Shown: piece after piece, positions 13,491 through 60,530 of the stretch
Layout of the letters: every line of letters starts with the position of its first letter
Numbering within the stretch: the first letter of the stretch is position 1
NCBI RefSeq assembly: GCF_044324785.1
Contig: NZ_CP172127.1
Length of the DNA stretch: 64,000 nt
Source: Escherichia coli
GTDB taxonomy: Bacteria; Pseudomonadota; Gammaproteobacteria; Enterobacterales; Enterobacteriaceae
Strand: one strand, 5' to 3'
Program-made: the position numbers and the translations under genes
The notes under the pieces: generated by a model
The model's database searches: none
The model's input: the letters and a program-made list of their open reading frames with translations, nothing else
What the model was told of the DNA's origin: nothing

Positions 13491-14446
13491 TGAAGCAACT
13501 TTGGTTTGCCATGTCATTAGTGACAGGTAGCCTGTTATTCTCTGCTAACGCCTCGGCCACTCCCGCGTCCGGGGCGTTATTACAGCAGATGAACCTGGCC
13601 AGTCAGTCACTGAATTACGAGCTGTCATTTATCAGCATCAATAAACAGGGTGTTGAGTCTCTGCGTTATCGACATGCACGCCTCGATAACCGTCCTCTTG
13701 CACAATTGTTGCAAATGGATGGCCCGCGCCGGGAAGTGGTACAGCGCGGCAATGAAATCAGCTATTTTGAACCGGGACTTGAACCGTTCACGCTTAATGG
13801 CGATTACATTGTTGATTCTCTGCCATCGCTCATCTATACCGATTTCAAACGCCTTTCTCCTTACTACGACTTTATCTCCGTCGGGCGCACGCGTATTGCT
13901 GATCGTCTTTGCGAAGTCATTCGCGTGGTTGCCCGAGATGGTACACGCTACAGCTACATCGTGTGGATGGACACCGAATCGAAATTACCGATGCGGGTTG
14001 ATCTCCTTGATCGCGATGGTGAAACGCTGGAACAATTTCGCGTGATTGCTTTTAACGTCAATCAGGATATCGGCAGCAGTATGCAGACGCTGGCGAAGGC
14101 AAATTTGCCGCCGTTGCTTTCTGTTCCTGTAGGTGAAAAAGCTAAATTCAGCTGGACGCCAACCTGGTTGCCACAGGGTTTTAGCGAAGTTTCCAGTAGT
14201 CGACGTCCGCTACCGACGATGGACAACATGCCTATCGAATCACGTCTCTATTCCGACGGATTATTCAGCTTCTCGGTAAACGTTAACCGCGCTACGCCAT
14301 CGAGCACCGATCAGATGTTGCGCACCGGGCGCAGAACCGTCAGTACAAGCGTACGTGATAACGCCGAAATCACCATTGTCGGTGAACTGCCGCCGCAAAC
14401 GGCGAAACGCATTGCCGAGAATATTAAGTTCGGGGCAGCGCAATGA
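13490..14446 (+). CDS. rseB: SigmaE regulatory protein RseB
   Basis: 318 aa with signal peptide; start overlaps the rseA stop (TAATG). Confidence 0.95.
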   Translation: MKQLWFAMSLVTGSLLFSANASATPASGALLQQMNLASQSLNYELSFISINKQGVESLRYRHARLDNRPLAQLLQMDGPRREVVQRGNEISYFEPGLEPFTLNGDYIVDSLPSLIYTDFKRLSPYYDFISVGRTRIADRLCEVIRVVARDGTRYSYIVWMDTESKLPMRVDLLDRDGETLEQFRVIAFNVNQDIGSSMQTLAKANLPPLLSVPVGEKAKFSWTPTWLPQGFSEVSSSRRPLPTMDNMPIESRLYSDGLFSFSVNVNRATPSSTDQMLRTGRRTVSTSVRDNAEITIVGELPPQTAKRIAENIKFGAAQ

Positions 14447-14922
14447 TCAAAGAGTGGGCTACCGTCGTCTCCTGGGAAAACGGGCAGGCGCTGGTTAGTT
14501 GTGATGTTAAAGCCTCATGCAGCAGCTGCGCTTCACGCGCCGGTTGCGGTAGCCGCGTGTTGAATAAACTTGGCCCGCAAACCACGCATACCATTGTCGT
14601 ACCCTGTGATGAGCCGTTAGTGCCGGGGCAAAAAGTGGAATTGGGGATCGCCGAAGGCAGCCTGCTTAGCTCCGCATTACTGGTTTATATGTCGCCGCTG
14701 GTGGGATTATTTCTCATCGCTTCGCTATTTCAGCTACTCTTTGCTTCAGATATTGCAGCATTATGCGGTGCGATTCTCGGTGGCGTTGGTGGATTCCTGA
14801 TTGCACGTGGCTGCTCTCGAAAGTTTGCTGCCCGGTCTGAATGGCAACCGATCATCTTAAGCGTGGCATTGCCGCCTGGCCTTGTGCGATTTGAAACATC
14901 TTCGGAAGACGCGAGCCAGTGA
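14443..14922 (+). CDS. rseC: SoxR-reducing system / sigmaE regulatory protein RseC
   Basis: 159 aa; N-terminal Cys cluster and two TM helices; start overlaps the rseB stop (ATGA). Confidence 0.9.
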   Translation: MIKEWATVVSWENGQALVSCDVKASCSSCASRAGCGSRVLNKLGPQTTHTIVVPCDEPLVPGQKVELGIAEGSLLSSALLVYMSPLVGLFLIASLFQLLFASDIAALCGAILGGVGGFLIARGCSRKFAARSEWQPIILSVALPPGLVRFETSSEDASQ

Positions 14923-15119
14923 TTTCACTGGCTTTGTTGCATTTTGCATAACAAATGCGAGGACGTTTCCAGATACCACAATCCATACGGTATGAACATT
15001 TCCTCGCCTCAATGTTGTAGTGTAGAATGCGGCGTTTCTATTAATACAGACGTTAAGCTCAGAACAGCGACTTCTAAAAGCCTGGTTAACCGGGCATTAA
15101 GGCACAATAATCATACTTT

Positions 15120-16919
<1,800 letters not shown>

Positions 16920-16934: not shown

Positions 16935-17909
16935 ATGGCGAATATGTTTGCCCTGATTCTGGTGATTGCCACACTGGTGACGGGCATTTTATGGTGCGTG
17001 GATAAATTCTTTTTCGCACCTAAACGGCGGGAACGTCAGGCAGCGGCGCAGGCGGCTGCCGGTGACTCACTGGATAAAGCAACACTGAAAAAGGTTGCGC
17101 CGAAGCCTGGCTGGCTGGAAACTGGTGCTTCTGTTTTTCCTGTGCTGGCTATCGTATTGATTGTGCGTTCGTTTATTTATGAACCGTTCCAGATCCCGTC
17201 AGGTTCGATGATGCCGACTCTGTTAATCGGTGATTTTATTCTGGTAGAGAAGTTTGCTTATGGCATTAAAGATCCTATCTACCAGAAAACGCTGATCGAA
17301 ACCGGTCATCCGAAACGCGGCGATATCGTGGTCTTTAAATATCCGGAAGATCCAAAGCTTGATTACATCAAGCGCGCGGTGGGTTTACCGGGCGATAAAG
17401 TCACTTATGATCCGGTCTCAAAAGAGCTGACGATTCAACCGGGATGCAGTTCCGGCCAGGCATGTGAAAACGCGCTGCCGGTCACCTACTCAAACGTGGA
17501 ACCGAGCGATTTCGTTCAGACCTTCTCACGCCGTAATGGTGGGGAAGCGACCAGCGGATTCTTTGAAGTGCCGAAAAACGAAACCAAAGAAAATGGAATT
17601 CGTCTTTCCGAGCGTAAAGAGACACTGGGTGATGTGACGCACCGCATTCTGACAGTGCCGATTGCGCAGGACCAGGTGGGGATGTATTACCAGCAGCCAG
17701 GGCAACAACTGGCAACCTGGATTGTTCCGCCGGGACAATACTTCATGATGGGTGACAACCGCGACAACAGCGCGGACAGCCGTTACTGGGGCTTTGTGCC
17801 GGAAGCGAATCTGGTCGGTCGGGCAACGGCTATCTGGATGAGCTTCGATAAGCAAGAAGGCGAATGGCCGACAGGTGTGCGCTTAAGTCGCATTGGCGGC
17901 ATCCATTAA
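16935..17909 (+). CDS. lepB: Signal peptidase I
   Basis: 324 aa; catalytic Ser in SGSMMPTL and Lys in KRAVGLPGD. Confidence 0.97.
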   Translation: MANMFALILVIATLVTGILWCVDKFFFAPKRRERQAAAQAAAGDSLDKATLKKVAPKPGWLETGASVFPVLAIVLIVRSFIYEPFQIPSGSMMPTLLIGDFILVEKFAYGIKDPIYQKTLIETGHPKRGDIVVFKYPEDPKLDYIKRAVGLPGDKVTYDPVSKELTIQPGCSSGQACENALPVTYSNVEPSDFVQTFSRRNGGEATSGFFEVPKNETKENGIRLSERKETLGDVTHRILTVPIAQDQVGMYYQQPGQQLATWIVPPGQYFMMGDNRDNSADSRYWGFVPEANLVGRATAIWMSFDKQEGEWPTGVRLSRIGGIH

Positions 17910-17922
17910 TAGCCCATCTTCG

Positions 17923-17962
17923 TTCACGTTGTCGCCGTTATGGCGACAACGTGAATTATTTA
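17923..17962 (+). terminator. Rho-independent terminator after lepB
   Basis: 14-bp perfect stem TTCACGTTGTCGCC / GGCGACAACGTGAA followed by a T-rich tract. Confidence 0.8.
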
Positions 17963-17984
17963 TGAGATAAATCTCCCGTGGCTA

Positions 17985-18013
17985 ACGACATCCCCCGTCG
18001 TTGTGTATAGAAT
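17985..18013 (+). promoter_or_regulatory. Putative rnc promoter (ACGACA-N17-TAGAAT)
   Basis: Sigma70-like -35/-10 pair about 170 bp upstream of the rnc ATG, ahead of the leader stem-loop. Confidence 0.4.
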
Positions 18014-18054
18014 ATTCCCCCGAAGTTTAAGGTTGGCACCTCCAGGTTGCCACG

Positions 18055-18148
18055 GCACACGAAACAGCGTTGGTCCCCATATACCGGTAAACTGAAACTG
18101 CAGCGAAGCAGTTAGCAGAGCCATGTATATCAGGTCTGTTTCGTGTGC
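18055..18148 (+). promoter_or_regulatory. rnc 5' leader stem-loop (RNase III autoregulatory target)
   Basis: Perfect 13-nt arms GCACACGAAACAG (18055-18067) and CTGTTTCGTGTGC (18136-18148) enclosing 68 nt, 34 nt upstream of the rnc ATG. Confidence 0.7.
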
Positions 18149-18151
18149 TGA

Positions 18152-19764
<1,613 letters not shown>

Positions 19765-19775
19765 GAGTAACTCCG

Positions 19776-20504
19776 ATGGAAGGCTGGCAGCGCGCATTTG
19801 TCCTGCATAGTCGCCCGTGGAGCGAAACCAGCCTGATGCTGGACGTCTTCACGGAGGAATCGGGTCGCGTGCGTCTGGTTGCCAAAGGCGCACGCTCTAA
19901 ACGCTCTACTCTGAAAGGTGCATTACAGCCTTTCACCCCTCTCTTGCTACGTTTTGGCGGGCGTGGCGAAGTCAAAACGCTGCGCAGTGCTGAAGCTGTC
20001 TCGCTGGCGCTGCCATTAAGCGGTATCACGCTTTACAGCGGTCTGTACATCAACGAACTTCTCTCCCGCGTACTGGAATACGAGACGCGCTTCTCTGAAC
20101 TCTTTTTCGATTACTTGCACTGCATTCAGTCACTTGCAGGTGCCACTGGTACGCCAGAACCCGCGCTGCGCCGCTTTGAACTGGCACTGCTCGGGCATCT
20201 GGGCTATGGCGTCAATTTTACTCATTGTGCGGGTAGCGGCGAGCCGGTAGATGACACCATGACGTATCGTTATCGCGAAGAAAAAGGGTTTATCGCAAGC
20301 GTCGTTATCGACAATAAAACGTTCACCGGAAGGCAGTTAAAAGCGTTAAACGCGCGGGAATTTCCTGACGCAGACACACTGCGCGCCGCGAAACGCTTTA
20401 CCCGCATGGCGCTTAAGCCGTATCTTGGCGGTAAACCATTAAAGAGCAGGGAACTGTTCCGGCAGTTTATGCCTAAGCGAACGGTGAAAACACATTATGA
20501 ATGA
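19776..20504 (+). CDS. recO: DNA repair protein RecO
   Basis: 242 aa; full-length match to recalled RecO. Confidence 0.95.
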
Positions 20505-21644: not shown

Positions 21645-21726
21645 TTATAAAGTAAAACCCCCGAACTGGTAAGGAACGGGGGTTTTACTTTTTAACTTTA
21701 ATTTTGTGCAGCACACGATTCCAACG
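21645..21726 (-). ncRNA. ohsC: Probable OhsC antitoxin sRNA of the shoB type I toxin-antitoxin pair (boundaries approximate)
   Basis: Plus-strand 21706-21724 (GTGCAGCACACGATTCCAA) repeats shoB 5'-UTR 21955-21973 at 18 of 19 positions, so a minus-strand transcript is antisense to the shoB leader; candidate minus-strand -10 CATAAT (complement of 21733-21738); terminator at 21652-21688. Confidence 0.35.
21652..21693. terminator. Bidirectional intrinsic terminator (acpS on plus strand; probable OhsC 3' end on minus strand)
   Basis: GTAAAACCCCCG / CGGGGGTTTTAC 12-bp stem with T-rich flanks on both strands. Confidence 0.75.
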
Positions 21727-30904: not shown

Positions 30905-31088
30905 AGTGGCTCATTCACCGACTTATGTCAGCCCCTTCGGGACGTGCTACATAAAATTCGAATGACGCACAACAAGGTGCCTGCCGTCCAACTTCTGATA
31001 TCAGCGTAGCTATATCAACCATCGGGCGAAACGTCGAGTTAGGCACCGCCTTATTCCATAACAAAGCCGGGTAATTCCCGGCTTTGTT
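30905..31088 (+). ncRNA. glmY: GlmY small RNA (SroF/tke1), about 184 nt
   Basis: Starts about 12 nt after the -12 element (AGTGGCTCATTCACC...) and ends at terminator hairpin AAAGCCGGG taatt CCCGGCTTT (31063-31085) plus GTTGT; in the purL-glrK gap next to the GlrK/GlrR genes. Confidence 0.75.
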
Positions 31089-60419: not shown

Positions 60420-60530
60420 TAAAAAGTATTCAGAATCAGGCCGGAGTGTTTAACACTCCGTAAACACGGTCGTACATCCAGCCGGTAGCCTGGTTCCTTG
60501 CATTGAGTGATGTACGGAGTTTATAGAGCA

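What the first reader, a model, noticed from the sequence alone, without database searches (positions are those of the whole stretch)
18055..18148. Long perfect inverted repeat in the rnc 5' leader
Perfect 13-nt arms (GCACACGAAACAG at 18055-18067 and CTGTTTCGTGTGC at 18136-18148) enclose 68 nt and end 34 nt before the rnc ATG. A long imperfect dsRNA stem in the leader is the expected substrate for RNase III autoregulatory cleavage of its own mRNA.
Basis: partly seen in the sequence, partly recalled or inferred. Interest (0 to 1): 0.35.

Follow-up and report, generated by a model that had tools for sequence, protein, structure and literature searches.

The report
Known RNase III self-regulation hairpin (rncO)
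The inverted repeat is the base of the large hairpin in the E. coli rnc mRNA leader (rncO), which RNase III cuts to destabilise its own message; it is real and correctly interpreted, but it has been known since 1989-1996.

Summary
GCACACGAAACAG (18055-18067) and its exact reverse complement (18136-18148) are present, 68 nt apart, and the repeat ends 33 nt before the rnc ATG at 18182. In RNA the stem extends to 15 bp (18053-18067 / 18136-18150).

The window is E. coli, with the gene order lepA-lepB-rnc-era-recO. The leader matches K-12 MG1655 except for one base in an internal loop.

Rfam family RF00552 (rncO) matches 18022-18236 over its full length at 258 bits, against a gathering score of 43. 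The hairpin 18053-18150 folds at -41.2 kcal/mol (z = -5.3).

Across 72 Enterobacterales leaders the basal stem is 96.7% paired, with two compensatory positions.

The literature (Bardwell 1989; Matsunaga 1996, 1997; later reviews) establishes the mechanism. RNase III cleaves this leader hairpin, and the shortened mRNA is then degraded rapidly through RNase E. This gives negative autoregulation of rnc-era.

One side observation: only a core of about 21 bp is conserved across genera. That core is the 15-bp stem, a 2x2 internal loop and a UUGG/UCAG helix. The apical ~56 nt seen in E. coli is a variable, lineage-specific expansion.

The parts
17985..18013 (+). Sigma-70-like rnc promoter (ACGACA, 17-nt spacer, TAGAAT) just upstream of the leader start.
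   Evidence: Consensus scan, 9 of 12 matches. The block CTAACGAC...GTATAGAATATTCCCCCGAAGTTT is conserved across genera. [quoted passage not shown]
18022..18236 (+). rncO, the whole leader element as modelled by Rfam RF00552.
   Evidence: cmscan gives 258.4 bits against a gathering score of 43, E = 3e-61, covering model positions 1-214 of 214.
18022..18033 (+). Unpaired 5' segment of the leader.
   Evidence: Rfam consensus structure line.
18034..18052 (+). Stem-loop I (7 bp, UCCA loop, one bulged U).
   Evidence: Present in the Rfam consensus and in the MFE fold. Six of its 7 pairs show compensatory changes across 72 Enterobacterales leaders.
18053..18150 (+). Stem-loop II, the irregular long hairpin that is the RNase III substrate.
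   Evidence: MFE -41.2 kcal/mol, z = -5.3. Rfam consensus structure. The literature describes RNase III cleavage of the irregular hairpin in the rnc 5' UTR.
18053..18067 (+).
   Evidence: Across 72 sequences the helix is 96.7% paired, with 8 of 15 pairs invariant and 2 pairs compensatory.
18136..18150 (+).
18068..18073 (+). Conserved CG (5' half of a 2x2 internal loop) followed by UUGG (5' strand of the second conserved helix).
   Evidence: Conserved in long and short forms of the hairpin. The UUGG/UCAG pairs are 89-96% paired.
18130..18135 (+). Conserved UCAG (3' strand of the second helix) followed by GU (3' half of the 2x2 internal loop).
18074..18129 (+). Apical extension of stem-loop II. 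It is variable between genera. It contains G18120, the only difference from K-12 within the leader.
   Evidence: The distance between the 15-nt arms ranges from 16 to 92 nt across genera. RNAalifold finds no consensus structure in this part. The SNP is shown.
18151..18181 (+). Single-stranded, AU-rich linker (AAUUGUUGACGCAUUUAUUUAUUGGUAUCGC) carrying the rnc translation-initiation region. It is inferred to be the entry region for RNase E after RNase III cleavage.
   Evidence: Unpaired in the Rfam consensus. Highly conserved across genera. The RNase E role comes from the literature; the exact site is inference.
18182..18862 (+). rnc coding sequence (RNase III, 226 aa), the first gene of rnc-era-recO.
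   Evidence: ORF list. RefSeq annotation of identical sequence.
18202..18221 (+). Stem-loop III (8 bp, AACG loop), inside the first codons of rnc.
   Evidence: Rfam consensus. It is 93.9% paired but shows no compensatory change, so coding constraint cannot be separated from structure.

Best explanation
The inverted repeat is the basal 15-bp helix of stem-loop II of rncO, the cis-acting operator in the 160-nt leader of the E. coli rnc-era-recO mRNA.

Transcription starts at about 18022. The nascent leader folds into stem-loop I (18034-18052) and the long irregular stem-loop II (18053-18150). While these are intact, the 5' structures keep the message stable.

RNase III, the product of the first gene, binds the double-stranded stem-loop II and cleaves it. 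This removes the protective 5' structure and leaves a monophosphorylated, largely unstructured 5' end. RNase E then attacks, probably in the AU-rich linker 18151-18181, and the rnc-era message decays quickly.

Because RNase III is scarce and is titrated by abundant substrates such as pre-rRNA, this gives negative feedback that tracks demand.

Basis of each step:
- Shown here: sequence identity to the E. coli leader, family membership, the fold, and cross-genus conservation with covariation.
- Taken from the literature: the cleavage itself and the RNase E-dependent decay.
- Inferred: that the cut lies in or just above the conserved lower helix, and that the AU-rich linker is the RNase E entry site.
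For: - Family match: Rfam RF00552 rncO over its full length, 258 bits against a gathering score of 43.
- Genomic context: lepA-lepB-rnc-era-recO-pdxJ-acpS, identical to the K-12 order. The 361-nt region is present in 5425 of 5426 complete E. coli genomes, always on the chromosome and essentially single-copy.
- Identity: the leader equals K-12 except G18120, which lies in an internal loop.
- Fold: stem-loop II at -41.2 kcal/mol, z = -5.3.
- Comparative support across 72 Enterobacterales leaders: stem I has 6 of 7 pairs with compensatory changes. The basal stem of II is 96.7% paired, with compensatory switches at two pairs (A-U 28 / C-G 36 / G-C 1, and G.U 48 / A-U 14 / U-A 4). Overall 94% of cells are paired, against 36-46% when the partners are slid by 1-3 columns.
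- Family range: all 20 loci tested from other genera pass the Rfam gathering score.
- Literature: RNase III cleaves a hairpin in its own 5' UTR, causing rapid decay (PMC5371410). Cleavage creates an unstructured 5'-monophosphate end recognised by RNase E (PMC3867540). Both rnc and era mRNAs are destabilised (PMC8708148). [quoted passage not shown]
Against: Nothing found here contradicts this explanation. The limits are as follows.
- The primary papers (Bardwell 1989; Matsunaga 1996) and the supplementary cleavage-site tables are not held, so I could not place the exact cut sites on the window.
- Most basal-stem pairs are invariant in sequence and so say nothing for or against pairing. Covariation in that helix rests on only two positions.
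- Stem III has no covariation support.
- Rfam's consensus pairing just above the basal stem (CC/GG) differs from the MFE and comparative pairing (UUGG/UCAG). The fine structure there is not settled by my data.
Confidence: 0.95

Rival explanations
1. The hairpin is an intrinsic terminator or attenuator that stops lepA-lepB read-through transcription before rnc.
For: It is a strong hairpin in the lepB-rnc intergenic region.
Against: The stem is followed by AAUUGUUGACG, with no U-tract, and the terminator scan does not call it. The terminator-like hairpin with a T-rich tail is a different element, at 17922-17956 directly after the lepB stop codon. This hairpin lies downstream of the rnc promoter and inside the mature leader.
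Confidence: 0.02
2. The conserved function of the structure is mainly to stabilise the 5' end or to control translation. On this view RNase III cleavage is a secondary feature specific to E. coli.
For: Only a hairpin of about 21 bp is conserved across genera, and the long apical part is lineage-specific. From my recollection of Matsunaga 1996 (not verified here), stem-loops I and II stabilise the message when RNase III is absent.
Against: Stabilisation and cleavage are two halves of one published mechanism, not alternatives. The conserved core is about two helical turns long, the usual size of a bacterial RNase III substrate (general knowledge). The title of Matsunaga 1997 states that autoregulation is independent of rnc translation (reference list).
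Confidence: 0.04
3. The repeat acts at the DNA level, as a palindromic protein-binding site or as a copy of a dispersed repeat or mobile element (REP- or MITE-like).
For: The inverted arms are perfect.
Against: The 13-mer occurs only at these two positions in the window. The locus is single-copy in nearly every E. coli genome and is never on plasmids. The arms are 68 nt apart here and 16-92 nt apart elsewhere. G.U pairs and compensatory changes fit RNA pairing rather than DNA symmetry.
Confidence: 0.01
4. The signal belongs to something on the minus strand: an antisense RNA, or the mechanical ORFs 18027-18164 (45 aa) and 17960-18238 (92 aa).
For: Minus-strand ORFs exist. Rfam gives a weak minus-strand rncO hit of 22.9 bits.
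Against: The minus-strand hit is below the gathering score of 43 and covers only the palindromic hairpin, so it is an echo of the plus-strand match. RefSeq annotates nothing on that strand here. The minus-strand ORFs overlap the hypervariable apical region, whose length changes by tens of nucleotides between genera.
Confidence: 0.01

Closest known systems
rncO (Rfam RF00552), the rnc leader operator of E. coli (Bardwell et al. 1989; Matsunaga, Simons & Simons 1996)
   Same: It is this element. The Rfam match is full-length, the gene context is the same, and the sequence is identical to K-12 apart from one internal-loop base. The layout is also the same: an unpaired 5' segment, then stem-loops I, II and III.
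   Different: Only the A-to-G difference at 18120 relative to K-12, a variant shared with other E. coli genomes (one search reports 100% identical records).
The RNase III site in the rpsO-pnp intergenic leader, which controls pnp expression
   Same: It is also a long irregular hairpin upstream of a ribonuclease gene. RNase III cleavage there likewise initiates decay of the downstream message.
   Different: It is a different sequence and locus. The regulated enzyme, PNPase, is not the one that makes the first cut, and PNPase itself is needed for the subsequent step (reference titles).
The rne 5' UTR (RNase E autoregulation)
   Same: It is a cis-acting structured leader through which a ribonuclease feeds back on the stability of its own mRNA.
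   Different: RNase E recognises a stem-loop (hp2) and cleaves single-stranded RNA. There is no double-strand cut and no sequence relationship.

Membership tests
rncO (Rfam RF00552) | Scores above the curated gathering threshold of the family covariance model, over its full length. | tested here: met
   258.4 bits against 43, model positions 1-214 of 214, E = 3e-61; repeated on the whole window.
rncO (Rfam RF00552) | Located in the leader and first codons of rnc, the first gene of the rnc-era-recO operon, downstream of lepB. | tested here: met
   The ORFs 16935-17909 (lepB), 18182-18862 (rnc), 18859-19764 (era) and 19776-20504 (recO) are listed. They are colinear with the K-12 annotation and with the RefSeq labels.
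rncO (Rfam RF00552) | Architecture: an unpaired 5' segment, a small stem-loop I, a large irregular stem-loop II, a single-stranded initiation region, and a small stem-loop III in the coding region. | tested here: met
   The MFE and centroid folds reproduce stem-loops I and II. Stem-loop III is seen here only as the Rfam consensus pairing, because the stretches I folded end at 18185 and 18150. Covariation supports stem I, with 6 of 7 pairs compensatory. It also supports the base of stem II, which is 96.7% paired with 2 compensatory pairs. Stem III is paired but has no covariation.
rncO (Rfam RF00552) | Begins at the transcription start of the rnc promoter, giving a 160-nt UTR. | tested here: met
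   A promoter-like -35/-10 lies at 17985-18013. The model start at 18022 is 160 nt before the ATG at 18182, matching 'rnc 5'-UTR (nucleotides 1-160)' in PMC10037077. The start site itself was not mapped here.
rncO (Rfam RF00552) | Stem-loop II is cleaved by RNase III, and the cleavage lowers rnc-era mRNA stability and expression. | not testable with these tools
   This was established experimentally for the E. coli K-12 leader (literature). The window differs from K-12 by one unpaired base. The exact cut positions could not be retrieved.

The most novel reading that the evidence does not exclude
The functional operator may be only the conserved core of about 21 bp: the 15-bp basal helix, a 2x2 internal loop (CG/GU), and the UUGG/UCAG helix. 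The 56-nt apical part of the E. coli hairpin would then be a dispensable, lineage-specific expansion. Comparable expansions appear to have arisen separately in the Escherichia/Salmonella/Citrobacter group, in Kosakonia/Phytobacter and in Raoultella.

Both arm sequences are almost invariant: 8 of 15 pairs never change across Enterobacterales, including Erwinia, Pantoea and Edwardsiella. That would imply sequence-specific recognition beyond simple pairing, such as RNase III reactivity determinants or a second factor.

I could not check whether this has already been described.
Probability: 0.3. Interest if true: 0.3.

Novelty: already known. Interest (0 to 1): 0.08.

Why it matters
The element is a classic example of a ribonuclease controlling its own synthesis through mRNA stability. 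It also sets the level of the essential GTPase Era, which is encoded downstream. For a genome scan, the value here is as a positive control: a reader working from sequence alone found a real regulatory RNA and interpreted it correctly. Nothing new about E. coli follows from it. The only lead is comparative. Most Enterobacteriaceae carry a much shorter hairpin with the same, nearly invariant base. That points to the minimal operator and could be tested simply.

Tried and rejected
- Primary papers. I tried to read Bardwell 1989 (PMC401487), Matsunaga 1996 (PMC1369450) and Court 2013 (PMC6311387). None is held.
- Cleavage coordinates. I looked for nucleotide-level cleavage coordinates of the rnc leader. 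Altuvia 2018 excludes rnc from its main tables and its supplements are not held. Gordon 2017 Table S1 has no lepB or rnc-region entry. No supplements are held for PMC10037077. The p19 paper has nothing on rnc. The exact cut sites are therefore not placed on the window.
- Apical structure. RNAalifold on 20 long-form hairpins gave a consensus only for the conserved core, with no shared apical structure. I therefore make no claim of covariation in the apical stem.
- Terminator reading. Rejected: there is no U-tract, and the terminator-like hairpin after lepB is at 17922-17956.
- Dispersed-repeat reading. Rejected: the sequence is single-copy.
- Minus-strand Rfam hit. The 22.9-bit hit is a sub-threshold palindromic echo.
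- Outliers. My regex anchor missed two leaders: L081 (Serratia microhaemolytica) and L089 (Enterobacterales bacterium CwR94). L081 still passes Rfam at 68 bits but is rearranged. I did not analyse it further.

Full report
**Observation**

The sequence read shows GCACACGAAACAG at 18055-18067 and CTGTTTCGTGTGC at 18136-18148. The repeat finder reports them as a 13-nt, 100% complementary pair with 68 nt between them. A pattern search finds the 13-mer only at these two places in the 64-kb window, even with one mismatch allowed, against 0.10 expected by chance.

The rnc ORF starts at 18182, so 33 nt separate the 3' arm from the ATG. As RNA the helix continues through G18054.U18149 and C18053-G18150 to 15 bp.

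In 200 dinucleotide-preserving shuffles of the window, perfect inverted repeats of 13 nt with a 3-100 nt spacer averaged 0.11 k-mer hits. Only 7.5% of shuffles had any. The real window has three such loci: the hairpin just after lepB, this one, and one in the ohsC region.

The hairpin 18053-18150 folds at -41.2 kcal/mol, against -24.1 +/- 3.2 for shuffles. That is z = -5.3, and none of 200 shuffles folds as well.

**What it is**

The window is Escherichia coli. The 361 bases around the feature match 5425 of 5426 complete E. coli genomes, always on the chromosome and almost always once. The features annotated under the match are lepB (signal peptidase I) and rnc (ribonuclease III). The K-12 MG1655 annotation gives the order rseB-rseC-lepA-lepB-rnc-era-recO-pdxJ-acpS, which the window's ORFs follow.

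Aligned to K-12, the lepB-rnc region differs in two places. One is a C-run indel at about 17913, outside the transcript. The other is a single substitution, G18120 in the window versus A in K-12, in an unpaired part of the hairpin.

An Rfam scan matches family RF00552 (rncO) at 18022-18236 on the plus strand. The score is 258.4 bits against a gathering score of 43, and all 214 model positions are covered (repeated). A 22.9-bit minus-strand hit over the hairpin alone is below threshold and reflects the hairpin's palindromic nature.

**Anatomy**

From the Rfam consensus and the MFE folds, the parts are as follows.
- An unpaired 5' segment, 18022-18033.
- Stem-loop I, 18034-18052.
- Stem-loop II, 18053-18150.
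- A single-stranded AU-rich linker with the initiation region, 18151-18181.
- The rnc start codon at 18182.
- Stem-loop III, 18202-18221, inside the coding sequence. This one is seen only in the Rfam consensus, because the folded stretches end at 18185 and 18150.

A sigma-70-like promoter (ACGACA, 17-nt spacer, TAGAAT) lies at 17985-18013. A transcription start at 18022 gives a 160-nt UTR. This agrees with a 2023 paper that clones 'rnc 5'-UTR (nucleotides 1-160)' and uses 'nucleotides 1-129' as an in vivo RNase III substrate. Nucleotides 1-129 correspond to 18022-18150, which ends exactly at the end of stem-loop II.

**Comparative evidence**

I aligned 72 non-redundant leaders and counted pairs for the named structure.

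- Overall, 94% of cells form standard pairs. This falls to 32-46% when the 3' partners are slid by 1-3 columns.
- Stem I has compensatory changes at 6 of its 7 pairs.
- The basal helix of stem II is 96.7% paired. Eight of its 15 pairs never vary. Two pairs show compensatory switches: C-G 36 / A-U 28 / G-C 1, and G.U 48 / A-U 14 / U-A 4.
- Stem III is 93.9% paired but has no compensatory change. It lies in coding sequence, so this is uninformative.

All 20 loci from other genera that I scanned pass the Rfam gathering score, at 68-231 bits.

**Mechanism**

The papers I could read give a consistent account.
[quoted passage not shown] - Both rnc and era mRNAs are destabilised (PMC8708148).
- The title of Matsunaga 1997, seen in a reference list, says autoregulation is independent of rnc translation.

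The primary papers (Bardwell 1989; Matsunaga 1996) are not held. My recollection of them is from memory and was not verified here. As I recall, stem-loop II carries the cleavage site, stem-loops I and II stabilise the uncut message, and the first ~215 nt suffice for regulation.

I could not retrieve the exact cut positions. My inference is that the cut lies in or just above the conserved lower helix. Two points support this. The product is described as having an unstructured 5' end. And a fusion ending at nt 129 releases a functional guide RNA after cleavage. If the cut were far up the hairpin, a stable 15-bp duplex would remain.

**Rival explanations**

- Terminator or attenuator. There is no U-tract after the stem, and the terminator-like hairpin with a T-rich tail is the separate element at 17922-17956, right after lepB.
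- DNA palindrome or dispersed repeat. The sequence is single-copy, the arm spacing varies between genera, and the G.U pairs and compensatory changes argue for RNA pairing.
- Minus-strand feature. The only signals are mechanical ORFs and a sub-threshold echo of the plus-strand hit.

**Side observation**

The distance between the two 15-nt arms differs widely between genera.
- 16-22 nt: Enterobacter, Klebsiella, Kluyvera, Lelliottia, Leclercia, Pluralibacter, Siccibacter, Franconibacter, most Kosakonia, Trabulsiella, Citrobacter koseri, Pantoea, Erwinia and Izhakiella.
- 26-28 nt: Shimwellia and Edwardsiella.
- 58-74 nt: Escherichia, Salmonella, most Citrobacter, Intestinirhabdus, Phytobacter diazotrophicus and Kosakonia sp. 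S29.
- 90-92 nt: Raoultella.

The short forms fold as a 15-bp stem, a 2x2 internal loop (CG/GU), a 4-bp UUGG/UCAG helix and a loop of about 5 nt. That is roughly two helical turns. The same CG-UUGG and UCAG-GU elements flank the apical extension in E. coli, at 18068-18073 and 18130-18135.

RNAalifold on 20 long forms recovers only this core. The comparative pairing UUGG/UCAG differs from the CC/GG pairing drawn in the Rfam consensus. The apical inserts of the Escherichia group, of Kosakonia/Phytobacter and of Raoultella do not align with one another, which suggests independent expansions. I could not check whether this has been described before.

**Verdict**

It is the long-known rncO operator, so novelty is nil and interest is low.

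Noticed in passing
window 18074-18129; loci L002-L121: The apical part of rncO stem-loop II is hypervariable in length across Enterobacterales. The spacing between the arms is 16-22 nt in most genera, 58-74 nt in Escherichia, Salmonella and most Citrobacter, and 90-92 nt in Raoultella. The 15-bp base, the 2x2 internal loop and the UUGG/UCAG helix are nearly invariant. The comparative pairing above the basal stem differs from the Rfam consensus drawing.
   Followed up: partly
window 17922-17956: A perfect 14-nt inverted repeat (16 pairs if G-U pairs are counted), followed by TATTTATGAG, lies 13 nt after the lepB stop codon. It looks like the intrinsic terminator of the lepA-lepB operon, just upstream of the rnc promoter.
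   Followed up: partly
window 17984-18002: A palindrome, AACGAC-N7-GTCGTT, overlaps the predicted -35 of the rnc promoter. The block CTAACGAC...GTCGTTGTGTATAGAAT is conserved in many genera, although the 3' half-site is broken in some (for example L010 and L011). It could be a regulator site or simply promoter conservation.
   Followed up: no
window 18151-18181: The 31-nt linker between stem-loop II and the rnc ATG (AAUUGUUGACGCAUUUAUUUAUUGGUAUCGC) is about as conserved across genera as the coding sequence. It is AU-rich and has only a weak Shine-Dalgarno-like sequence. It may combine the RNase E entry site with translation-initiation signals.
   Followed up: no
window 14407-15238 (-): Rfam RF02746 AsrC (antisense RNA of rseC mRNA) matches at 507 bits. 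It was also found at the syntenic place in several other genera.
   Followed up: no
window 21649-21725 (-): Rfam RF02495 ohsC, the antitoxin sRNA of the shoB-ohsC type I toxin-antitoxin pair, matches here. This locus contains the window's third perfect inverted repeat of 13 nt or more (21649-21691).
   Followed up: no
window 30905-31052 (+) and 60420-60529 (+): Rfam matches to GlmY (RF00128, 147 bits) and to the iscRS stability element (RF01517, 132 bits). Both are known E. coli RNA elements.
   Followed up: no
L081 (Serratia microhaemolytica), about 140 nt upstream of rnc: This rnc leader passes the Rfam rncO threshold at only 68 bits and lacks the GCACACGAAAC arm motif. It appears to be a rearranged or divergent version of the operator.
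   Followed up: partly
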